Made by a program: the position numbers and the translations under genes
Notes under the pieces: model-generated
The model's database searches: none
The model's input: only the letters and a program-made list of their open reading frames with translations
Told to the model about the DNA's origin: nothing
Source: Candidatus Woesearchaeota archaeon
Lineage (GTDB): Archaea > Nanobdellota > Nanobdellia > SCGC-AAA011-G17 > PNOQ01
Direction of reading: 5' to 3'
Length of the DNA stretch: 64,000 nt
NCBI GenBank assembly: GCA_964471565.1
Contig: CAYYFK010000002.1
Location: forward strand, 849 to 64,848
Shown here: positions 36,444-51,604 of the stretch, piece by piece
Layout of the letters: each line of letters begins with the position of its first letter
Position numbering within the stretch: position 1 is the first letter of the stretch

Positions 36444-36514
36444 AGCGCACGCCCGGAATCGAACCGGGGATCAGAGGGTTGCAGCCTCTTGCCTTACCGC
36501 TTGGCCACGTGCGC
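36444..36514 (-). tRNA. tRNA-Cys (anticodon GCA)
   Basis: Minus-strand GCGCACG/CGTGCGC acceptor, anticodon arm AGAGG-CTGCAAC-CCTCT, T-arm CCCGG-TTCGATT-CCGGG, discriminator U; TATA ttttataaata about 25 nt upstream; overlapping track ORF 36317..36544 is spurious. Confidence 0.8.
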
Positions 36515-36575: not shown

Positions 36576-37088
36576 ATGAAAATTTCAAGAAAAGTAAGAA
36601 ATGGAGTAACAATAGCAATACTATCTTTAATGCCATTCATAGCTAGCGATACAAGTAAAAAACAAACCGAACAAGTACTAAAAAAGGCTGAAAATATGAG
36701 ATTAATCAATGAATATGATATTTCTCAATTAAATCTTTCAACAAAAGAAGAAAAAGAGTTACAAGCAAGAGTAGAAGAAAAACTAGAAGCTTACACACCA
36801 AAAACAAAATTTGCTCTACCATACATTGGATCAGATGTAAAAACAGAATTACAAGGTATAGACAGAGAAGGGTTCACACTAAAATACAGATTAAATTCAG
36901 ATTTGCCAATCCAATTCAGATTGGGAATGGGGACAAAAACTAAAACAAAATTCAATGGAAATTCAAGTATAGAGGAAATAAACTTTGATCTGTCTAGAAA
37001 GATATTTGGAGCAAACACATTATACCAAGTCAATATATCCCAAGACAATCAACCAGAATATAGGTTCTCATTAAATTTTAATTTTTAA
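36576..37088 (+). CDS. hypothetical secreted/membrane-anchored protein
   Basis: Start moved to the internal Met (MKISRKV...) because the track ORF overlaps tRNA-Cys; N-terminal hydrophobic segment. Confidence 0.4.
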   Translation: MKISRKVRNGVTIAILSLMPFIASDTSKKQTEQVLKKAENMRLINEYDISQLNLSTKEEKELQARVEEKLEAYTPKTKFALPYIGSDVKTELQGIDREGFTLKYRLNSDLPIQFRLGMGTKTKTKFNGNSSIEEINFDLSRKIFGANTLYQVNISQDNQPEYRFSLNFNF

Positions 37089-37094
37089 AAAGAG

Positions 37095-37216
37095 CGGACC
37101 GGAAGGGATTTGAACCCTCGACCCCTAGCTTTCTTCAACTCAGTTTAGAAGGCCTACACAGAAGCATACTAACGCAAAACTTCTTTAGTGCTCTATCCAA
37201 GCTGAGCTACCGATCC
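37095..37216 (-). tRNA. tRNA-like gene with about 50 nt of intervening sequence (intron or introns; anticodon unresolved)
   Basis: Minus strand: acceptor GGATCGG pairs with CCGGTCC (U4-G69); canonical D-arm GTAGCTCAGCTTGGATAGAGC; T-arm GAGGG-TTCAAAT-CCCTT; discriminator G; about 70 nt between D-arm and variable region where only 17-23 nt are expected. Confidence 0.5.
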
Positions 37217-37217
37217 A

Positions 37218-38063
37218 CTAAAGTTTAAGAGCTCCAATATCATTTATAAATTTATCTACAACACTCTTTTTACTACACCAAATCACCCAAGAATTGTTCG
37301 CTTTATCAAAATAAGGGGGTCTTACAGAAAGTCCAACAAATCGAAATAATAAATAAACCTGATTTAAAAATTTCTTTGATTTTTGCCTTAATTGAAAACA
37401 TAATTTTCCTCTATGAAAATATTTATTCCCATCGCTATCCATCAATCCCCTTAGAAAATACTTTATATAAACAGAATCATTTTTTATTTTAGCTGGAACT
37501 CTAATGGAATCATATTTCTCACCAATAGGAATTTCATAATAAGTGTTCAAGAAAAATAATAAAGCCTTAGAATAGATACAAACATCATAACAGCCCTTGC
37601 CCTTATGACAACTTGGCCTAATTCCAAAAAGATGCTCCATTAATTCAGAAACGTGATTTATTCTCTCTTTCCCTTTAACAGCAATCCTAACAGAATAACT
37701 TTGCCTCTTTAATTCCCTTTCTTTACTTATACAAAGACATCCATCTCCTAACAACAAACCCAAAAAGTAATACAAACGAAAATCCACATTTTCTGGAAGA
37801 TTAATTGTATTCCCACTATTAATAGACAAAGAACTAACATTTACTCTTTCAATATTATTTTTTTCACAAATATCAATTAAACAAGAAACCGGAATAGGTC
37901 TTTCTTTTCGTTTCCAATAATAAATAGATCTTTCAGAAACCCCTTCAACCTCTTTAGGATTTAAATTTGAAATAGTTTCTTCAAGGGCAAGATCATTAAA
38001 AAGGATGCAAATATTCTTTTTATTCGATATCAATCTTTTTAAATCTTTAACACCCAATTCCAT
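37218..38063 (-). CDS. LAGLIDADG-family homing-endonuclease-like protein (two motifs)
   Basis: YYFLGLLLGDGCL and KYFLRGLMDSDGNKYF dodecapeptide motifs; start moved to MELGVKDL (ATG 38063) because the upstream 42 codons read through the promoter element. Confidence 0.65.
   Translation of the reverse strand: MELGVKDLKRLISNKKNICILFNDLALEETISNLNPKEVEGVSERSIYYWKRKERPIPVSCLIDICEKNNIERVNVSSLSINSGNTINLPENVDFRLYYFLGLLLGDGCLCISKERELKRQSYSVRIAVKGKERINHVSELMEHLFGIRPSCHKGKGCYDVCIYSKALLFFLNTYYEIPIGEKYDSIRVPAKIKNDSVYIKYFLRGLMDSDGNKYFHRGKLCFQLRQKSKKFLNQVYLLFRFVGLSVRPPYFDKANNSWVIWCSKKSVVDKFINDIGALKL
37243..37256 (-). promoter_or_regulatory. candidate TATA box for the tRNA-like gene, inside the 3' end of the LAGLIDADG ORF
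   Basis: Minus-strand taaatttataaa about 30 nt upstream of the tRNA-like 5' end. Confidence 0.3.
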
Positions 38064-38083
38064 GGTCTTCAATAGTGAAATCC

Positions 38084-38123
38084 ATTTATAAATTATTTCC
38101 GCGTGCGTGACAAGCTGACAAGA
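38084..38123 (-). promoter_or_regulatory. TATA box plus upstream GC-rich direct-repeat box (copy B)
   Basis: Minus-strand CTTGTCAGCTTGTCACGCACGCGGAAATAATTTATAAAT, about 21 nt upstream of the LAGLIDADG ATG; matches copy A at 33 of 35 upstream positions. Confidence 0.45.
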
Positions 38124-38172
38124 AAACCTTACTACAGCAAAGATTATAAAGATAAATAACTCCTCAAAATCA

Positions 38173-38550
38173 ATGGTAATGAAATACACGGCAAATCATA
38201 AGTACAGGCCAAATCTACAAGATGGAGATGTAGAATGTCCAATTAAATTAGAACAAGGCATCTTAGAATTATATGGAAAATATAAAACAGGATCTATTCA
38301 CAAGGGTCCAATGAAGAGAGTATTTGGAAGCAACTATGAAATTTTTAGTAGAAAAGTTAATAGATTAATAAGAGGATCAAGTGTTTCATTGGAAGACAGA
38401 GATAAATTAAAACTCAGCGATGGAAGAAGAATCAAAAGTTTATCCCTAGAAATATGTTTAGAAGAGGGGATAGAAAGAGCTAAGAAACAAAGAAAAGAAT
38501 ACGAAAAACTCTACAGAATCAGACCCGAAGTGGAGAGAATGCGATTCTAA
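38173..38550 (+). CDS. hypothetical basic protein
   Basis: 125-aa ORF divergent from the LAGLIDADG gene and upstream of leuS. Confidence 0.35.
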   Translation: MVMKYTANHKYRPNLQDGDVECPIKLEQGILELYGKYKTGSIHKGPMKRVFGSNYEIFSRKVNRLIRGSSVSLEDRDKLKLSDGRRIKSLSLEICLEEGIERAKKQRKEYEKLYRIRPEVERMRF

Positions 38551-38591
38551 CAATCCAAAAATATTTAAATATCTCAAATCAACAAATTCTT

Positions 38592-41195
38592 ATGAATTAC
38601 AATGAAATAGAGAAAAAGTGGCAAGAAGATTGGGAAAAAGCTCAAATCTATCAAGTAGATGAAGATTCAAAAAAACAAAAGTTCTACTGCCTAAGCATGT
38701 ACCCATATCCATCGGGTTCAGGATTACATATAGGTCACGCCTCAAACTTCTCAATAACTGATGTTTTTTCTAGATTCAAAAGGATGCAAGGTTTTAACGT
38801 TCTACATCCCATGGGATTTGACTCATTTGGATTGCCTGCAGAAAACGCCGCAATAAAAAACAACTCTCATCCAAAATTATTTACTGAAAAAGCGATAAAG
38901 AATTTCATAAAACAAATGAAAGAGCTAGGTCTTAGTTATGATTGGTCTAGAGTTATTTATTCTCACGATCCCGACTATTACAAATGGAATCAATGGTTAT
39001 TTCTACAAATGTATAAAAAAGGATTAGCATACAAAAAAACTGCTCCAGTTAATTGGTGTACAAAATGTAATACTGTTCTTGCAAATGAACAAGTTGTAAA
39101 TGGTTGCTGTTGGAGACATGAAGATACCGAGGTAGAAATCAAAGAATTAAATCAATGGTTTTACAAAACAACAGATTATTCCAAGGAGCTAGTTAAGGAT
39201 TTAGAAAAACTAGATTGGCCAGAAGAAATAAAACAAATGCAAAGAAATTGGATTGGAGAATCTGAAGGAACAATAGTAAATTTCAAATTAAAAGATACAA
39301 AAGAAGACATTCCAATTTTTACAACAAGAGTAGATACAATCTATGGAGTTACTTTTATGGTTTTTGCTCCAGAACATCCAAAAGTTCAAGAGCTAGTAAA
39401 AGGAACAAAGCATGAAAAAGACGTAAAAGAATTTACAAAAAAAGTAATGCTTCAAGATAAATTCGAAAGAACCGCAGAAGATACAGAGAAAGAAGGTCTA
39501 TTCACTGGAAAATATGCAATAAACCCCTTAACAAATGAGGAGATTCCAATTTACATAGGAAACTTCGTAATCCCCGATTATGGTGGTGGCGCAGTTATGG
39601 CAGTACCAGCCCACGATCAAAGAGATTTTGAGTTTGCAAAGAAATATGACATTCCAATAAAGGAAGTTATAATTCCTAAAGACAAAGTAATAGATAAATT
39701 AGAGAATGCTTATGTCGAAGATGGAATTCTAATTAATTCAGATAAATTCAATGATTTAAATAATAGAAAAGCAATCGAAGAAATAACAAAACACTTAGAG
39801 AAAAAGAGATTAGGAAACAAAACAACAAATTACAGATTAAGAGATTGGTTACTATCAAGACAAAGATATTGGGGAACTCCAATTCCAATTTTGTATTGTG
39901 ATAAATGTGGATTAGTTCCAGAAAAAGAAAAAAATCTTCCAGTAAAATTACCAGAAGATGTCAATTTCAAATCTGGGGGGAACCCGTTAGAAACTTCAAA
40001 AGAATACCAAAACGCAGTATGTCCAAAATGTAAGGGAAAAGCAAAAAGAGAAACAGACACAATGGACACATTTATTGATTCTTCATGGTATTTCTTAAGA
40101 TACTTAGATCCCAATAATGACAAGAAAATATTTTCTAAGAAAAAAGCAGATTATTGGATGCCAATAGACCTTTACATAGGTGGAAAAGAACACGCAACTG
40201 GCCACCTAATTTATTGTAGATTCATAACTAAAGTCTTGAAAGATCTAAAATTAATAAAAACAAAAGAACCAATTCAAAAACTTTTCAACCAAGGAATGCT
40301 ACATAAAAATGGAGTAGTAATGTCTAAGTCAAAAGGAAATGTAGTTACGCAAGAAGATATATCAGAAAAATATGGGATAGATACAGCAAGATTTTTCCTA
40401 TTTTCAATTTCTTCTCCAGAAAAAGACAAAGAATGGTCAGATAAAGGAATAGAAGGATCATTCAGAGTTATAAACAAAATTCTACCATTAGCAGAAAAAA
40501 AATTCTCAAAAGATAAAACTCCAGAGCTAGATAATATACTAAACAAAACAATAAAAAATATAACAGAAACGATTGAAAACTTACAATATAATTTATCAAC
40601 AATTTATTTAACGGAATTAATTAACTTCCTATCTAGAAATGAAATAACAAAGGAGTCCGTAGAAACATTAGCTAAGTTACTTTCTCCATTTACACCACAT
40701 ATAGCAGAGGAACTATGGAATAAATTAGGAAATAAAGAGTTTGCCTTAGAACAAAAATGGCCAAAATATTCAGAAGAAAAAATAAATCCGGAGATTGATG
40801 CTCAAGAAGAACTAGTAAAAAACACGATAAACGATGTTAAAGCAATTATGGATTTAGTCAAAATAGAACCAAAAAAAGCAACTATCTCAGTAGCAGAAGG
40901 ATGGAAATACGAATTAATTAAAAATTTTAAAGAAGAATTGAAAAAAACAAGAGAACTTTCAAAATTAATAAAAAAAGTAATGGTTCAAGAGCATGCAAAA
41001 GAGATTTCAAAAATAATTCCTTCATTATTAAGAAACGAATCTAAAATTCCAAAAGTAGTTTTAACACAACAAAAAGAGTTTAGAGTTTTAGAGAAAAACA
41101 GAGAATTATTAGAAAAAGAATTAAACATAGAAATAGAAATAAGAAGAAACAACGAAAAAGCAATGCCCTCTAAACCATCAATAAAAATTGAATAA
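38592..41195 (+). CDS. leuS: leucyl-tRNA synthetase
   Basis: HIGH variant (GLHIGHASNF), KMSKS variant (VMSKSKGN), CP1 editing insertion, Zn knuckles (CTKCNT, CPKCKGK). Confidence 0.9.
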   Translation: MNYNEIEKKWQEDWEKAQIYQVDEDSKKQKFYCLSMYPYPSGSGLHIGHASNFSITDVFSRFKRMQGFNVLHPMGFDSFGLPAENAAIKNNSHPKLFTEKAIKNFIKQMKELGLSYDWSRVIYSHDPDYYKWNQWLFLQMYKKGLAYKKTAPVNWCTKCNTVLANEQVVNGCCWRHEDTEVEIKELNQWFYKTTDYSKELVKDLEKLDWPEEIKQMQRNWIGESEGTIVNFKLKDTKEDIPIFTTRVDTIYGVTFMVFAPEHPKVQELVKGTKHEKDVKEFTKKVMLQDKFERTAEDTEKEGLFTGKYAINPLTNEEIPIYIGNFVIPDYGGGAVMAVPAHDQRDFEFAKKYDIPIKEVIIPKDKVIDKLENAYVEDGILINSDKFNDLNNRKAIEEITKHLEKKRLGNKTTNYRLRDWLLSRQRYWGTPIPILYCDKCGLVPEKEKNLPVKLPEDVNFKSGGNPLETSKEYQNAVCPKCKGKAKRETDTMDTFIDSSWYFLRYLDPNNDKKIFSKKKADYWMPIDLYIGGKEHATGHLIYCRFITKVLKDLKLIKTKEPIQKLFNQGMLHKNGVVMSKSKGNVVTQEDISEKYGIDTARFFLFSISSPEKDKEWSDKGIEGSFRVINKILPLAEKKFSKDKTPELDNILNKTIKNITETIENLQYNLSTIYLTELINFLSRNEITKESVETLAKLLSPFTPHIAEELWNKLGNKEFALEQKWPKYSEEKINPEIDAQEELVKNTINDVKAIMDLVKIEPKKATISVAEGWKYELIKNFKEELKKTRELSKLIKKVMVQEHAKEISKIIPSLLRNESKIPKVVLTQQKEFRVLEKNRELLEKELNIEIEIRRNNEKAMPSKPSIKIE

Positions 41196-41255: not shown

Positions 41256-41897
41256 ATGAAAGATGAGACATTTATGCTGTTATCAATGAAAGATTCAAAA
41301 AATGTAGCTAATGCTATGTCGAATGAAACAGCACAAAAAATAATTTCTTATTTAGCAGAACACAAAGAATCAACAGAATCAGATATTGCAAAAAATCTAA
41401 AGGTTCCGCTACCAACGGTACATTATAATATTCAACAATTAAAAAAAGCTAAACTAATTGATGCAAAAGAATTTTTTTGGAGTAAAAAAGGAAAAGAAAT
41501 GTTAGTTTACAAATTAGCAAAGAAGTATATTATAATCTCTCCTGACAATTCAGAGAATTCCTTATCAAAATTAAAAACCCTTCTTCCAGTTACCTTGTTA
41601 AGCCTAGTGGGCTCTGGAGCAATTTATTTTTGGCAGAAAGCAAAATTAACATCAACAAAACTAATTGGAACAGCCTCAGATGCATTTGCCAATGGCGGAG
41701 CGATGGAAAAAGCAGCATTGGACGCCAGTAAGGAAGAAATTGCTGGAAAAATGATGGCTGGTGGGGATCAAGTTGCAGATCTAACACAGGAGGTAGTAAC
41801 CAAAGTGATACCTCCAAACTACGCATTATTTTTCTTAATGGGATCATTATCAGTAATTCTATTAATTTTACTGCTCTCACTACTAAGAAGAAAATAA
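41256..41897 (+). CDS. membrane-anchored winged-helix (ArsR-like) regulator
   Basis: N-terminal HTH (TAQKIISYLAEHKESTESDIAKNLKVPLPTVHYNIQQLKKAKLI), central and C-terminal TM segments. Confidence 0.4.
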   Translation: MKDETFMLLSMKDSKNVANAMSNETAQKIISYLAEHKESTESDIAKNLKVPLPTVHYNIQQLKKAKLIDAKEFFWSKKGKEMLVYKLAKKYIIISPDNSENSLSKLKTLLPVTLLSLVGSGAIYFWQKAKLTSTKLIGTASDAFANGGAMEKAALDASKEEIAGKMMAGGDQVADLTQEVVTKVIPPNYALFFLMGSLSVILLILLLSLLRRK

Positions 41898-43924: not shown

Positions 43925-45664
43925 TTATTTTAAAACCGCTTTAATTCTTCTAACACCAGAACCAACAGATTTTTGCTTTACAACTTTAAACTTTCCCAAC
44001 TTTTTAGTATTAGGAACATGTGGTCCAGAACAGATTTCTTTTGAAAATTTACCGACTGAATAAACAAAAACTCTTTCGCCATATTTATGCTCAAAAACAC
44101 CTTCGGCACCAACCTCTTTTGCCTTTTTTACACTCATCTCTTCTCTAACAACTTCTAGCCCTTCTTTTATTTTTTCATTAACAAGATCCTCAATTTTTTT
44201 AACTTCATCCTTTTCCAACTTTCTATCAAAACTGAAATCAAATCGTAACCTCTCAGAATTAATATTAGATCCTCTTTGTTCAACTTTATTTCCTAAAACT
44301 TTTTGCAAGGCAGTATACAATAGGTGACAAGCAGTATGCAATTTAGTAGTTTCTTCAGAAGTATCAGCCAAACCACTCCCAAATTTTCCCTTAGTAGCAG
44401 TTCTACTCAATTTTTGATGTTTATTAAATTCTTTTTCATAGCCTTTAACATCAACTTTAATTTTCTTCTCTTTAGCCAATTCCAAGGTCATTTCCAAGGG
44501 AAAACCAAAAGATTGAAACAAAAGAAATGATTCCTTTCCAGATATTTTTTTATTTTTTGAAAACTTCTCAAATCTCCTCAATCCCTTTTCTAAAGTTTTT
44601 CCAAATTTAATTTCCTCTTTTTCAATTTCATCCAAAATAAATTTTTTCTTTTCCTTCAAATTAGAATAATCTTTCGAATTAATTTCAATAACTACCTCAG
44701 CTAATTCTTTAGTAAACTTTTTGTTAATCTTTAATAAATTCCCGTGTCTAATTGCAACTCGAATTAATCTTCTCAAAACATATCCTTGATCAACATTACT
44801 TGGAACAACTCCATCTCCAAATAGAAAAGTAGCTGATCGAATATGGTCACAAATTTTACGAATAGAAAATTCATTATCTAACTTAGCTAATCCCTTTATC
44901 TTATTTACAATGGGCAATAACAAACTGCACTCATAAAGATTTTCTTTTCCTTCTAGAATTGCATATATTCTTTCATAGCCGCCACCAAAATCAACATTTT
45001 TCTGTTCCAGTTCTTCATATTTTCCTTTAGAATCTTTATTGTATTGCATAAAAACATTATTCCCTATCTCGACCCAATTTTTATTTTTTACATCAAACTT
45101 ATTGGGCATTTCGTCATTAGATATCCAATAAAATATTTCAGTATCAGGACCACACGGACCAGTCTTACCTGCAGGACCCCAGAAATTTTCTTTCTTATCT
45201 AAATAAACGATTCTATCTTTTGGAATTCCCAAACTGCCCCAGATTTTAGCACTCTCTTTATCTTTTGGGACATTTTTATCTCCTTCAAATACAGAAATAG
45301 CAATTTTATCCTTGTCCAAGTTTAGCCAATCTTTTCCCGTCAGAAATTCAAATGTAAGCTTAATTGCCTCTTCTTTCCAATAATCTCCTAAAGACCAATT
45401 GCCAAACATTTCAAAGAAAGTTAAATGAACATCATCTCCAACTTCCTCAATATCTCCCGTTCTTAGACATCTTTGTACATTAACTAGCCTTTCTCCAGAA
45501 GGATGTTTCTCTCCAAGTAAAAATGGAACTAAAGGGTGCATTCCTGCAGTTGTAAATAAAACCGTGGGATCGTTCTCAGGAATTAAAGAGCTATTTTTTA
45601 TCTCTTTATGTTTTTTCTTTTTGAAAAATTCAATATATTTTTTCCTTAACTCTCTTGCTTCCAT
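43925..45664 (-). CDS. alaS: alanyl-tRNA synthetase, short form with bacterial-type catalytic N-terminus and editing domain, lacking C-Ala
   Basis: NDPTVLFTTAGM class II AlaRS signature; editing-site HTACH...CSGPH; 579 aa. Confidence 0.8.
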   Translation of the reverse strand: MEARELRKKYIEFFKKKKHKEIKNSSLIPENDPTVLFTTAGMHPLVPFLLGEKHPSGERLVNVQRCLRTGDIEEVGDDVHLTFFEMFGNWSLGDYWKEEAIKLTFEFLTGKDWLNLDKDKIAISVFEGDKNVPKDKESAKIWGSLGIPKDRIVYLDKKENFWGPAGKTGPCGPDTEIFYWISNDEMPNKFDVKNKNWVEIGNNVFMQYNKDSKGKYEELEQKNVDFGGGYERIYAILEGKENLYECSLLLPIVNKIKGLAKLDNEFSIRKICDHIRSATFLFGDGVVPSNVDQGYVLRRLIRVAIRHGNLLKINKKFTKELAEVVIEINSKDYSNLKEKKKFILDEIEKEEIKFGKTLEKGLRRFEKFSKNKKISGKESFLLFQSFGFPLEMTLELAKEKKIKVDVKGYEKEFNKHQKLSRTATKGKFGSGLADTSEETTKLHTACHLLYTALQKVLGNKVEQRGSNINSERLRFDFSFDRKLEKDEVKKIEDLVNEKIKEGLEVVREEMSVKKAKEVGAEGVFEHKYGERVFVYSVGKFSKEICSGPHVPNTKKLGKFKVVKQKSVGSGVRRIKAVLK

Positions 45665-51064: not shown

Positions 51065-51604
51065 ATGGATGTTGTGATAGAAAAAGAAATAGAGAACCTT
51101 GTATCTCAATTAACTGGAGAAGAAGCCGTAAATGTAGTTAAGTATATTCTTTCCCAAGGGGAAAACGTATCCGAATTTTTAATTGCTGAAAAACTAGAAG
51201 CTCCAATAAATCATATTAGAAATGTTCTTTATAGACTTCAAGAAAACAACCTTATTACATTCACAAGAAAGAAAGATAAAAAGAAAGGCTGGTATATTTA
51301 TTACTGGACTTTTAATCACGCAGAAGCAAAAGCAACAATAAAAAGAATGAAAGACAGCCGAATAGAAAATCTTAGAAAAAGACTAGAAAGAGAAGATTCA
51401 AGTACATTTTATACGTGCTCATCTAAATGTTTGAGAATAAAATTTGATAACGCACTAGAAAATGACTTTAGATGCTCAGAGTGCAATAAAGTTTTAAAAG
51501 AAATTAGCAATACTAAAGTAATAAAAGAAATTAAAAAAGAGCTTTCAATGCTAGAAGAAACCTCTTCAGAAGAACATTCTACAATTGCAGAAGTAACTGC
51601 TTAA
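51065..51604 (+). CDS. tfe: transcription factor E (TFE, TFIIE-alpha homolog)
   Basis: N-terminal winged helix and C-terminal Zn ribbon YTCSSKC...RCSECNKVL; 179 aa. Confidence 0.7.
   Translation: MDVVIEKEIENLVSQLTGEEAVNVVKYILSQGENVSEFLIAEKLEAPINHIRNVLYRLQENNLITFTRKKDKKKGWYIYYWTFNHAEAKATIKRMKDSRIENLRKRLEREDSSTFYTCSSKCLRIKFDNALENDFRCSECNKVLKEISNTKVIKEIKKELSMLEETSSEEHSTIAEVTA

What the first reader, a model, noticed from the sequence alone, without database searches (positions are those of the whole stretch)
37095..37216. tRNA-like gene with canonical acceptor/D/T arms but about 50 nt of unresolved intervening sequence
On the minus strand, GGATCGGTAGCTCAGCTTGGATAGAGCAC and GAGGGTTCAAATCCCTTCCGGTCCG form a textbook acceptor stem (U4-G69), D-arm and T-arm, with discriminator G. 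About 70 nt separate the D-arm from the variable region, and I could not fold a standard 5-7-5 anticodon arm or a canonical 37/38 bulge-helix-bulge from them. The 5' leader ACTTTAGTG is perfectly complementary to CACTAAAG at the D/anticodon junction. This points to one or more non-canonical introns (common in DPANN and Thermoproteales), a permuted or split arrangement, or a decayed tRNA used as an integration target.
Basis: seen in the sequence. Interest (0 to 1): 0.7.

Follow-up and report, generated by a model that had tools for sequence, protein, structure and literature searches.

The report
Two-intron arginine tRNA gene
This is a real arginine tRNA gene of a small DPANN (Woesearchaeota-like) archaeon that gene finders miss because two short protein-spliced introns interrupt it; the kind is known, but it always sits directly behind a conserved homing-endonuclease-like gene, which may bear on how such introns spread.

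Summary
Window 37216..37095 (minus strand, 122 nt) is a tRNA gene with intact acceptor, D and T arms and 47 nt of extra sequence.

The extra sequence is two introns:
- 32 nt between tRNA positions 29/30 (37185..37154)
- 15 nt at the canonical 37/38 site (37145..37131)

Removing them gives a perfect 75-nt tRNA-Arg(UCU). Its D-arm, anticodon arm, variable loop and T stem-loop are letter-for-letter those of intronless genes in related Woesearchaeota MAGs. Both introns sit in bulge-helix-bulge (BHB) motifs. Of 52 two-deletion solutions that restore a cloverleaf, only this one has a 4/4 central helix at both cuts. The 29/30 motif is backed by strong covariation across 21 distinct orthologues. A fixed-distance TATA box and a T-run terminator flank the gene.

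The split, permuted and decayed readings are rejected. The leader complementarity is real but not conserved.

This is a new member of a known kind: archaeal multi-intron tRNAs.

Unexpected extra: the ORF ending 1 nt upstream is an intact double-motif LAGLIDADG protein. In 13 of 13 contexts examined, its family lies directly upstream of tRNA-Arg(UCU), and 12 of those genes carry the 37/38 intron. The closest sampled relative lacks both the ORF and the introns.

The parts
37243..37250 (-). Archaeal TATA box TTTATAAA. It lies 26 nt upstream of tRNA position 1, inside the 3' end of the upstream ORF.
   Evidence: Sequence. A TATA-like 7-mer ends 24-28 nt before +1 in 32 of the 43 orthologous loci in which one was found; the smaller values are later AT-rich matches.
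37186..37216 (-). Exon 1: tRNA positions 1-29 (acceptor 5' strand, D-arm, A26, C27 U28 A29).
   Evidence: Nucleotide homology with the intronless relative L016 covers exactly 37216..37186.
37154..37185 (-). Intron 1: 32 nt at the non-canonical position 29/30 (AAGAAG...GTGTAG).
   Evidence: It is absent from intronless orthologues. Homologous introns of 17-32 nt occupy the same site in 26 loci.
37188..37191 (-). BHB-1 central helix, exon strand (G24 C25 A26 C27). It pairs with 37156..37159.
   Evidence: 4/4 pairs in all 26 loci. A26:U changes to G26:C by compensatory change. The local MFE fold reproduces it.
37156..37159 (-). BHB-1 central helix, intron strand (GUGU). It is followed by the 3' bulge A G | G30 (37155..37153).
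37180..37184 (-). BHB-1 outer helix h', 5' strand (AGAAG). It pairs with CUUCU at 37160..37164 and is preceded by the 5' bulge U28 A29 | A (37187..37185).
   Evidence: All five pairs show changes on both sides across the orthologues.
37160..37164 (-). BHB-1 outer helix h', 3' strand (CUUCU).
37146..37153 (-). Exon 2: 8 nt, GCCUUCUA, tRNA positions 30-37. The anticodon UCU is at 37149..37147.
37131..37145 (-). Intron 2: 15 nt at the canonical position 37/38 (AACTGAGTTGAAGAA). GAAG at 37136..37133 pairs with C32-C35 (37151..37148). The bulges are U36 A37 | A and A A | A38.
   Evidence: All 19 distinct complete 37/38 introns of this gene family keep a 4-nt complement to CUUC at intron positions -6..-3; the truncated L065 copy does too.
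37095..37130 (-). Exon 3: tRNA positions 38-73 (anticodon stem 3' strand, variable loop GGGUC, T-arm, acceptor 3' strand, discriminator G73).
   Evidence: Homology with L016 resumes at 37131.
37087..37091 (-). T5 run 3 nt after G73: a likely archaeal transcription terminator.
   Evidence: Sequence. The same CTCTTTTT trailer is present in L016.
37218..38063 (-). Associated gene: a 281-aa double-motif LAGLIDADG protein. Its stop codon is 1 nt from the tRNA. It is linked to the tRNA rather than part of it.
   Evidence: Pfam LAGLIDADG_3, 35.8 bits against a cutoff of 22.5. Weak PDB matches to I-DmoI and to a putative homing endonuclease, 2dch. It belongs to a family of about 60 proteins with both motifs conserved. 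Always followed by tRNA-Arg(UCU).

Best explanation
A functional tRNA-Arg(UCU) gene of a DPANN (Woesearchaeota-like) archaeon, interrupted by two bulge-helix-bulge introns.

Shown here:
- The gene structure and the exact splice junctions.
- The BHB geometry at both junctions.
- Conservation of the structure, with covariation for the 29/30 motif.
- The promoter and terminator signals.

Inferred from established archaeal tRNA biology:
- The gene is transcribed from its own TATA box with a very short leader or none.
- The splicing endonuclease EndA cuts after the second nucleotide of each 3-nt bulge.
- The RtcB-type ligase joins the three exons (31 + 8 + 36 nt) into a 75-nt tRNA.
- CCA is added after transcription, because it is not encoded.
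- The 29/30 motif is of the relaxed HBh' type. Its central helix borrows G24-C25 from the D-stem and C27 from the anticodon stem, and it has no closing helix h. It should therefore need a broad-specificity EndA, of the kind reported for DPANN lineages.
For: 1. Removing 37185..37154 and 37145..37131 gives a 75-nt sequence that ARAGORN calls tRNA-Arg(tct), with a 5-bp all-Watson-Crick anticodon stem and the loop CUUCUAA.
2. Intronless tRNA-Arg(TCT) genes in related Woesearchaeota and Nanoarchaeota MAGs (L014, L016, L024, L033 and others) read ...GGATAGAGCACTA|GCCTTCTAAGCTAGGGGTCGAGGGTTCAAATCCC. That is exactly the predicted spliced product across both junctions. They score 67 bits with Rfam tRNA.
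3. No single deletion restores a cloverleaf. Of 52 two-deletion ways, only this one has 4/4 BHB central-helix pairs at both cuts.
4. For the 29/30 BHB, 21 distinct orthologues with introns of 17-32 nt give 94% of cells paired and 45 cells changed on both sides, against 14.4 in shuffles (0 of 500 shuffles reach it). Slid controls give 18-60% paired. The local MFE fold of G22..C32 is exactly the HBh' structure.
5. For the 37/38 BHB, GAAG, GAGG or GGAG sits at intron positions -6..-3 in all 19 distinct complete introns.
6. The TATA box lies at a fixed distance and a T-run terminator follows the gene.
7. The window is archaeal: L15e, L10P, Spt5, TFE, Cdc6, Nre, diphthamide synthesis and wyosine formation genes.
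8. Rfam places a full-length tRNA match on exactly these coordinates and pairs C27-U28-A29 with U41-A42-G43.
9. The literature says such genes are expected in DPANN and are missed by predictors (PMC5829648). The BHB definition is in PMC4090602.
Against: - There are no expression or splicing data.
- EndA was not found in the 64-kb window, so its type is unknown.
- The conformer carrying both BHB motifs is 10.6 kcal/mol above the unconstrained MFE of the whole precursor (-32.2 against -42.8). MFE predictions for tRNA precursors are notoriously poor.
- The 29/30 motif has no h helix.
- For the 15-nt intron, h' is only 3 bp, and the MFE prefers a register shifted by one nucleotide.
- The genomic sequence scores 28.1 bits with Rfam, against a gathering score of 29.
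- Whether the genome holds a second, intronless tRNA-Arg(UCU) cannot be seen from one window.
Confidence: 0.93

Rival explanations
1. Decayed tRNA pseudogene or attachment-site remnant left by an integrating element. The adjacent LAGLIDADG gene would be the element's cargo.
For: A mobile-element-type gene abuts the 5' end. The segment between the tRNA and LeuRS is replaced relative to the close relative L016, and homology breaks exactly at tRNA position 1.
Against: - The spliced sequence is a flawless cloverleaf, identical to intronless orthologues across both junctions.
- Both insertions have BHB geometry, with covariation for the 29/30 motif.
- The promoter and terminator are intact.
- No second partial tRNA copy (direct-repeat att site) was seen in a T-loop motif scan of the window.
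- The same architecture persists across deeply diverged lineages.
Confidence: 0.03
2. A single-intron tRNA with a long variable arm, as ARAGORN -i proposes: tRNA-Pro(AGG) with a 25-nt intron at 35/36.
For: This is the only model that an off-the-shelf tool returns.
Against: - The proposed anticodon stem has an A-C mismatch and a G-U pair.
- The 26-nt 'variable arm' has no stem.
- The intron position (within the anticodon) is not a BHB site.
- A tRNA-Pro(UGG) already lies in the window.
- No orthologue supports the model, whereas 29/30 + 37/38 reproduces known intronless genes.
Confidence: 0.01
3. Part of a split or permuted tRNA that is joined in trans or through a circular intermediate.
For: The leader is complementary over 8 nt to the D/anticodon junction. 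Such leader-trailer helices are typical of split and permuted tRNAs.
Against: - All three exons are colinear and in order on one strand, between one promoter and one terminator.
- The complementarity is not conserved in 40 orthologues.
- With the TATA box 26 nt upstream, most of that 'leader' is probably not transcribed (inference).
Confidence: 0.01
4. The leader/body helix (CTTTAGTG with CACTAAAG) is a regulatory alternative structure that competes with BHB-1 and controls splicing.
For: It overlaps the exon strand of the BHB-1 central helix. Its chance frequency is 1.4%. It is kept at 7 of 8 nt in the nearest relative L035.
Against: - It is absent from L017, L048, L025, L007, L043 and all other 29/30-intron loci.
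- The sequence is the stop codon and last codons of the upstream ORF.
- It was noticed post hoc.
Confidence: 0.02

Closest known systems
Archaeal multi-intron tRNA genes with non-canonical BHB introns (Thermoproteales, ARMAN-2, Methanopyrus kandleri tRNA-Glu; PMC4090602, PMC3239211, PMC5829648)
   Same: One canonical and one non-canonical intron in a single gene. The non-canonical site has a relaxed HBh' motif. The introns are short and carry no ORF. Standard gene finders miss such genes.
   Different: The lineage is Woesearchaeota-like DPANN. The position is 29/30 in tRNA-Arg(UCU). Here the intron is shown to be widespread and length-variable (17-32 nt) across many uncultured relatives. I could not confirm from the papers read whether 29/30 in this isoacceptor has been catalogued.
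Canonical archaeal and eukaryotic 37/38 tRNA intron
   Same: Intron 2 obeys the textbook rule. [quoted passage not shown] Each splice site lies in a 3-nt bulge (PMC4090602).
   Different: The intron is only 15 nt, with a 3-bp h'. Its closing helix h is the anticodon stem, and that stem is itself split by intron 1.
Collaborative or intronless homing by free-standing homing endonucleases (F-CphI next to the cyanophage psbA intron, PMC6083498; T4 mobE, PMC2790892)
   Same: A free-standing endonuclease gene lies directly beside a conserved gene whose intron could mask the target site. Presence and absence are patchy between close relatives.
   Different: The known cases are phage genes with self-splicing group I introns and non-LAGLIDADG enzymes. 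Here the setting is cellular archaea, with protein-spliced BHB introns in a tRNA and a LAGLIDADG protein. No cleavage activity or target is known, so this is an analogy, not a membership claim.
I-DmoI-type LAGLIDADG endonucleases encoded in archaeal rRNA BHB introns
   Same: A monomeric two-motif LAGLIDADG architecture. There are weak sequence matches to I-DmoI and to a putative homing endonuclease, PDB 2dch. Both are associated with BHB-spliced introns.
   Different: The gene lies outside the intron, upstream of the tRNA. It carries an extra conserved N-terminal region of about 120 aa. Similarity to solved structures is only E about 1e-2 to 1e-3.

Membership tests
tRNA (cloverleaf; Rfam RF00005), isoacceptor Arg(UCU) | Seven-bp acceptor stem, D-arm, 5-bp anticodon stem with a 7-nt loop (U33, purine 37), variable loop and T-arm after intron removal | tested here: met
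   ARAGORN on the spliced 75-mer returns tRNA-Arg(tct) with all stems intact.
tRNA (cloverleaf; Rfam RF00005), isoacceptor Arg(UCU) | Score at or above the Rfam gathering score (29 bits) on the genomic sequence | tested here: not met
   28.1 bits at 37095..37216; nothing in whole-window scans. This is expected with 47 nt of insertions. The intronless orthologues L016 and L024 score 67 bits, and the two-intron orthologues L035 and L017 score 42-45 bits. The spliced sequence itself cannot be submitted to this tool.
tRNA (cloverleaf; Rfam RF00005), isoacceptor Arg(UCU) | Arginine identity elements known from model systems (A20, C35, purine 73) | tested here: met
   Read directly from the sequence: D-loop ...UGGA(20)UA, anticodon U-C35-U, G73. 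Their role in this lineage is inferred from general knowledge and was not tested.
Archaeal bulge-helix-bulge (BHB) intron | Four-bp central helix flanked on opposite strands by two 3-nt bulges that carry the splice sites | tested here: met
   Intron 1: GCAC/GUGU with bulges UA|A and AG|G. Intron 2: CUUC/GAAG with bulges UA|A and AA|A. This is the only one of 52 cloverleaf-restoring solutions with 4/4 pairs at both cuts. Definition from PMC4090602.
Archaeal bulge-helix-bulge (BHB) intron | Both flanking helices h and h' present (strict hBHBh') | tested here: not met
   Intron 1 has a 5-6 bp h' but no h (A23 opposite C31), which is the relaxed HBh' type. Intron 2 has h (the anticodon stem) and only a 3-bp h'. 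Relaxed forms are an accepted subclass (PMC5829648).
Archaeal bulge-helix-bulge (BHB) intron | Structure conserved with compensatory changes across homologues | tested here: met
   Intron 1: 94% of cells paired, 6 of 9 pairs with changes on both sides, covariation score 0.588 against 0.157 in shuffles (0 of 500), and all slid controls lower. Intron 2: the complement to the invariant CUUC is kept in 19 of 19 distinct complete introns. No covariation is possible there because the exon strand is the anticodon loop.
Archaeal bulge-helix-bulge (BHB) intron | Cleavage by the splicing endonuclease EndA and ligation by RtcB; the genome encodes a broad-specificity EndA | not testable with these tools
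   No EndA domain was found among the 50 window ORFs scanned. The rest of the genome is not available. There are no RNA data.
Split or permuted tRNA | Exons encoded at separate loci, or the 3' half upstream of the 5' half | tested here: not met
   The exons are colinear and contiguous within 122 nt, between one promoter and one terminator.
LAGLIDADG homing endonuclease (upstream ORF 37218..38063) | Two LAGLIDADG motifs, each ending in a catalytic acidic residue; Pfam match above the cutoff | tested here: met
   GLLLGDG and GLMDSDG. Both are at least 95% conserved in 60 homologues. PF14528 scores 35.8 bits against a cutoff of 22.5.
LAGLIDADG homing endonuclease (upstream ORF 37218..38063) | Site-specific DNA cleavage of an allele that lacks the gene, and gene conversion (homing) | not testable with these tools
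   Only indirect evidence. The distribution is patchy: the ORF is absent from the closest relatives L016, L033 and L024 but present in the more distant L035.

The most novel reading that the evidence does not exclude
The tRNA introns and the abutting LAGLIDADG gene form one mobile unit, an archaeal counterpart of 'collaborative homing'. A free-standing LAGLIDADG endonuclease, parked 1 nt upstream of tRNA-Arg(UCU), would cut intronless, endonuclease-less alleles in or near the anticodon arm. The 37/38 intron, and here also the 29/30 intron, would protect the carrier allele and be co-converted during repair. That would give protein-spliced BHB tRNA introns a DNA-level route of spread.

Support:
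- 13 of 13 contexts of this roughly 280-aa family are immediately followed by tRNA-Arg(UCU), and 12 of those 13 genes carry a 37/38 intron.
- A second, unrelated-looking LAGLIDADG family of about 230 aa flanks the same intron-bearing tRNA in two other arrangements (L048/L017 and L019).
- Among unbiased scan-1 archaeal loci, an adjacent LAGLIDADG gene goes with intron 2 (4 of 4 against 4 of 18; Fisher p = 0.0096, not corrected for phylogeny).
- The sister genome L016 (LeuRS 90-92% identical) has neither the ORF nor either intron, whereas the more distant L035 has all three.

Against:
- The endonuclease diverges about as much as host genes (70% against 74% identity between the window and L035). 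The family is full-length and conserved over deep divergence, so vertical inheritance plus loss, or a domesticated host function, fits equally well.
- One member (L060) sits beside an intronless gene.
- Many intron-bearing loci have no endonuclease nearby.
Probability: 0.25. Interest if true: 0.8.

Novelty: new member of a known kind. Interest (0 to 1): 0.42.

Why it matters
For annotation: AGA/AGG decoding in this low-GC archaeon depends on a gene that ARAGORN and Rfam do not report at their default thresholds. The same holds for dozens of related DPANN genomes. Published work already suspected undetected disrupted tRNAs in DPANN (PMC5829648).

For biology: the locus gives a well-sampled natural series of one tRNA gene with no intron, the 29/30 intron, the 37/38 intron, both, and in some metagenomic copies further insertions. 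This series documents rapid gain or loss of BHB introns between close relatives.

If the strict linkage to LAGLIDADG genes reflects homing, the long-debated question of how archaeal tRNA introns spread becomes directly testable with one enzyme and one 75-bp target.

Tried and rejected
- ARAGORN at default settings and the Rfam gathering scan of the whole window gave no call at the locus.
- Rfam in E-value mode on a 501-nt slice also returned no tRNA hit. Only a 156-nt slice gave the 28.1-bit match.
- ARAGORN -i returned tRNA-Pro(AGG), which I rejected.
- Cloverleaf rules alone are not decisive. 31 different 17-mers (52 ways) satisfy the stem, U33 and R37 rules, so I did not rely on them. BHB geometry and orthologues decide the answer.
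- The whole-precursor MFE fold does not show the cloverleaf or the BHBs, so I did not use it as evidence either way.
- A T-loop motif scan and ARAGORN -i over the whole window found no further hidden tRNAs.
- The search for EndA in the window was negative.
- The idea that L016 is a clean 'empty site' for the LAGLIDADG gene is only partly true. The whole tRNA-LeuRS spacer is replaced by unrelated sequence carrying a different small ORF.
- L031 (AR20) shares an identical intron-bearing tRNA with L019 but not the downstream LAGLIDADG gene.
- Literature searches found no paper linking LAGLIDADG genes to archaeal tRNA BHB introns. I could not search for '29/30' as a term.

Full report
**1. Observation.**
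A normal anticodon arm needs 17 nt, so 47 nt are extra.

Off-the-shelf tools fail on this locus:
- ARAGORN finds only tRNA-Pro(UGG), tRNA-Cys(GCA) and tRNA-Arg(UCG) in the window.
- Rfam at gathering thresholds finds the same three.
- ARAGORN with introns allowed forces a tRNA-Pro(AGG) with a mismatched anticodon stem and an unpaired 26-nt 'variable arm'.
- On a 156-nt slice, the Rfam tRNA model gives a full-length match at exactly 37095..37216. It scores 28.1 bits, just under the 29-bit gathering score. It pairs C27-U28-A29 with U41-A42-G43 across a 58-nt insertion.

The locus is 100% identical in contigs from four independent metagenome samples.

**2. Resolution.**
Deleting 37185..37154 (32 nt, AAGAAG...GTGTAG) and 37145..37131 (15 nt, AACTGAGTTGAAGAA) yields this 75-nt sequence:

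GGATCGGTAGCTCAGCTTGGATAGAGCACTAGCCTTCTAAGCTAGGGGTCGAGGGTTCAAATCCCTTCCGGTCCG

ARAGORN folds it as a flawless tRNA-Arg(UCU) with anticodon stem CUAGC/GCUAG and loop CUUCUAA. The introns lie between positions 29/30 and 37/38.

Cloverleaf rules alone do not prove this. No single deletion works, but 52 two-deletion combinations (31 different anticodon arms) satisfy the stem, U33 and R37 rules. Requiring a 4-bp BHB central helix at both cuts, with each splice site after the second nucleotide of a 3-nt bulge, leaves exactly one solution, the one above.

**3. Orthologues.**
A scan of one genome per species for the anticodon loop and 3' half, allowing 0-30 nt at 37/38, returned 29 loci. 25 of them are from DPANN-type archaeal MAGs, most of them titled Woesearchaeota or Nanoarchaeota.
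- Many are intronless and read ...GGATAGAGCACTA|GCCTTCTAAGCTAGGGGTCGAGGGTTCAAATCCC. This matches my predicted product letter for letter across both junctions. Rfam scores them at 67 bits.
- Others carry only the 37/38 intron (L011, L012, L019, L027, L031, L034).
- L007 carries only the 29/30 intron.
- L017, L025 and L035 carry both.

A metagenome scan anchored on the D-arm and the 29/30 site added 21 loci. Altogether, 26 loci (21 distinct sequences) carry an intron of 17-32 nt at this site.

**4. BHB motifs.**
Intron 1:
- Exon G24-C25-A26-C27 pairs with intron GUGU.
- The bulges are U28-A29|A and A-G|G30.
- AGAAG/CUUCU forms the outer helix h'.
- There is no closing helix h, so this is the relaxed HBh' type.
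- The local MFE fold of G22..C32 is exactly this structure, at -10.8 kcal/mol.

On a splice-site-anchored alignment of the 21 distinct sequences:
- 94% of cells pair.
- All five h' pairs change on both sides.
- The central helix shows A26:U changing to G26:C.
- 45 cells are changed on both sides, against 14.4 in shuffles (0 of 500 shuffles reach it).
- Every slid control is far lower.

One subgroup (L040, L043, L046) uses a register one nucleotide to the left. This gives the same mature sequence because the junction base is ambiguous.

Intron 2:
- C32-C35, which include the first two anticodon bases as in the textbook definition (PMC4090602), pair with GAAG at intron positions -6..-3.
- The bulges are U36-A37|A and A-A|A38.
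- All 19 distinct complete 37/38 introns in the collected loci (11-46 nt) keep GAAG, GAGG or GGAG there, while the rest of each intron cannot be aligned; the truncated L065 copy does too.

**5. Expression signals and host.**
- TTTATAAA lies at 37250..37243. A TATA-like 7-mer ends 24-28 nt before position 1 in 32 of the 43 orthologous loci in which one was found.
- A T5 run follows G73.
- CCA is not encoded.
- The window is unambiguously archaeal: L15e, L10P with its insertion domain, L1, L11, Spt5-NGN, TFE, Cdc6, Nre, diphthamide synthesis, ZPR1 and wyosine formation genes.
- No EndA gene lies in the window.
- Published work reports that DPANN lineages carry EndA variants associated with disrupted tRNA genes, and that their tRNA sets are incompletely predicted (PMC5829648).

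**6. Mechanism (inferred).**
- The gene is transcribed with little or no leader.
- EndA cuts at the four bulge sites.
- RtcB-type ligation joins the exons of 31, 8 and 36 nt.
- CCA is added.

BHB-1 borrows two D-stem pairs and one anticodon-stem pair. The precursor must therefore adopt a non-cloverleaf conformer for that cut. The double-BHB conformer is 10.6 kcal/mol above the unconstrained MFE, a caveat of limited weight.

**7. Leader complementarity.**
CTTTAGTG (leader plus G1) is complementary to CACTAAAG over 8 bp. This occurs in 1.4% of shuffled or random leaders. It is kept at 7 nt only in L035, and is absent from 40 other orthologues, including all other carriers of the 29/30 intron. 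The sequence is the stop codon and last codons of the upstream ORF. Given the TATA position, it is probably mostly untranscribed. I treat it as incidental.

**8. The neighbour.**
The ORF ending at 37218, with an ATG at 38063 (281 aa), is a two-motif LAGLIDADG protein with the motifs GLLLGDG and GLMDSDG.
- Pfam PF14528 scores above its cutoff.
- There are weak matches to I-DmoI and to a putative homing endonuclease, PDB 2dch.
- It belongs to a family of about 60 full-length DPANN proteins (37-76% identity) with both motifs at least 95% conserved.
- In 13 of 13 genomic contexts examined, the ORF is immediately followed, on the same strand, by tRNA-Arg(UCU). These are the window, L035, L043, L011 and nine contexts fetched through diverse homologues.
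- The tRNA's TATA box is encoded inside the ORF's last codons.
- 12 of the 13 tRNAs carry a 37/38 intron.
- A second LAGLIDADG family of about 230 aa flanks intron-bearing tRNA-Arg(UCU) in two other arrangements (L048/L017 and L019). The L017 copy looks degraded.

The closest sampled relative, L016, has the following features:
- Its LeuRS is 90-92% identical in amino-acid sequence.
- Its flanks are 84% identical in nucleotide sequence.
- Its tRNA-Arg is intronless.
- It has no LAGLIDADG gene.
- Homology resumes exactly at the exon boundaries.

On a LeuRS fragment tree, the window groups with the intronless, endonuclease-less L016, L033 and L024. L035, which has the endonuclease and both introns, lies outside that group.

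This pattern fits a homing-endonuclease life cycle and the 'collaborative homing' precedent (PMC6083498). It fits vertical inheritance with repeated loss equally well: the endonuclease diverges about as much as LeuRS. I therefore report it as the most novel reading that the evidence does not exclude, not as the conclusion.

**9. Verdict.**
The finding is real and is resolved: a two-intron (29/30 and 37/38) tRNA-Arg(UCU) gene. It is a new member of the known class of archaeal multi-intron tRNAs. The split, permuted and decayed readings are rejected. Interest is moderate. It is raised by the strict and unreported linkage to LAGLIDADG genes, and by the natural series of intron presence and absence between close relatives.

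Noticed in passing
window 37218..38063 (-); also L035, L043, L011, L057-L065: An intact double-motif LAGLIDADG gene ends 1 nt before the tRNA. Its family (about 60 DPANN proteins) is followed by tRNA-Arg(UCU) in 13 of 13 contexts, and 12 of those tRNAs carry a 37/38 intron. The closest relative, L016, lacks both the gene and the introns.
   Followed up: yes
window 37243..37250 within the ORF 3' end; same in L058, L059, L060, L063, L064: The tRNA's TATA box (AATTTATAAA) is encoded by the conserved C-terminal codons (D/N-K/N-F-I-N/K) of the LAGLIDADG ORF. The same bases therefore serve as both coding sequence and promoter.
   Followed up: partly
L048 1492..2271 (-), L017 436..786 (-), L019 2983..3684 (+): A second LAGLIDADG family of about 230 aa lies next to intron-bearing tRNA-Arg(UCU) in different orientations. 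The L017 copy is only a 116-aa fragment (decaying?). L031 has the same tRNA as L019 but no such gene downstream.
   Followed up: partly
L041 and L047 (Hainich groundwater contigs), L055: These tRNA-Arg(UCU) copies carry a further insertion after the anticodon arm. In L041 and L047 it is about 20 nt between GCTAG/GCTAA and GGGTC. In L055 it lies inside the 3' strand of the anticodon stem. They may be third introns at other non-canonical positions.
   Followed up: no
window 36444..36514 (-): tRNA-Cys(GCA) lies about 580 nt downstream of tRNA-Arg(UCU). The Arg-Cys pairing recurs in L058, L059, L060, L063, L064, L016 and L024.
   Followed up: partly
window 38592..41195 (+): The LeuRS is 867 aa and has a strong match to the bacterial-type editing domain PF13603 (E 4e-72), in an otherwise archaeal window. 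It may have been acquired horizontally. It is adjacent to tRNA-Arg(UCU) in many relatives.
   Followed up: no
window 43925..45664 (-): The AlaRS ORF is only 579 aa (catalytic core plus SAD domain), much shorter than typical archaeal AlaRS. It may be truncated or split.
   Followed up: no
L057, L059, L060, L062, L064 and the place: A metallo-beta-lactamase gene of about 300 aa (Lactamase_B/Lactamase_B_4, RNase Z-like), an LSm gene and a class II aaRS gene recur beside the LAGLIDADG-tRNA-Arg unit. This is a neighbourhood rich in RNA-processing genes.
   Followed up: no
window 37217..38591 against L016 1925..2387: The spacer between tRNA-Arg and LeuRS is a replaced segment. The window holds the LAGLIDADG gene plus an unannotated 125-aa ORF (38173..38550). 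L016 holds an unrelated 117-aa ORF. Homology breaks exactly at tRNA position 1.
   Followed up: partly
window 41256..41897 (+) and 51065..51604 (+): The window holds two TFIIE-alpha/TFE-like genes: a weak winged-helix match and a strong one.
   Followed up: no
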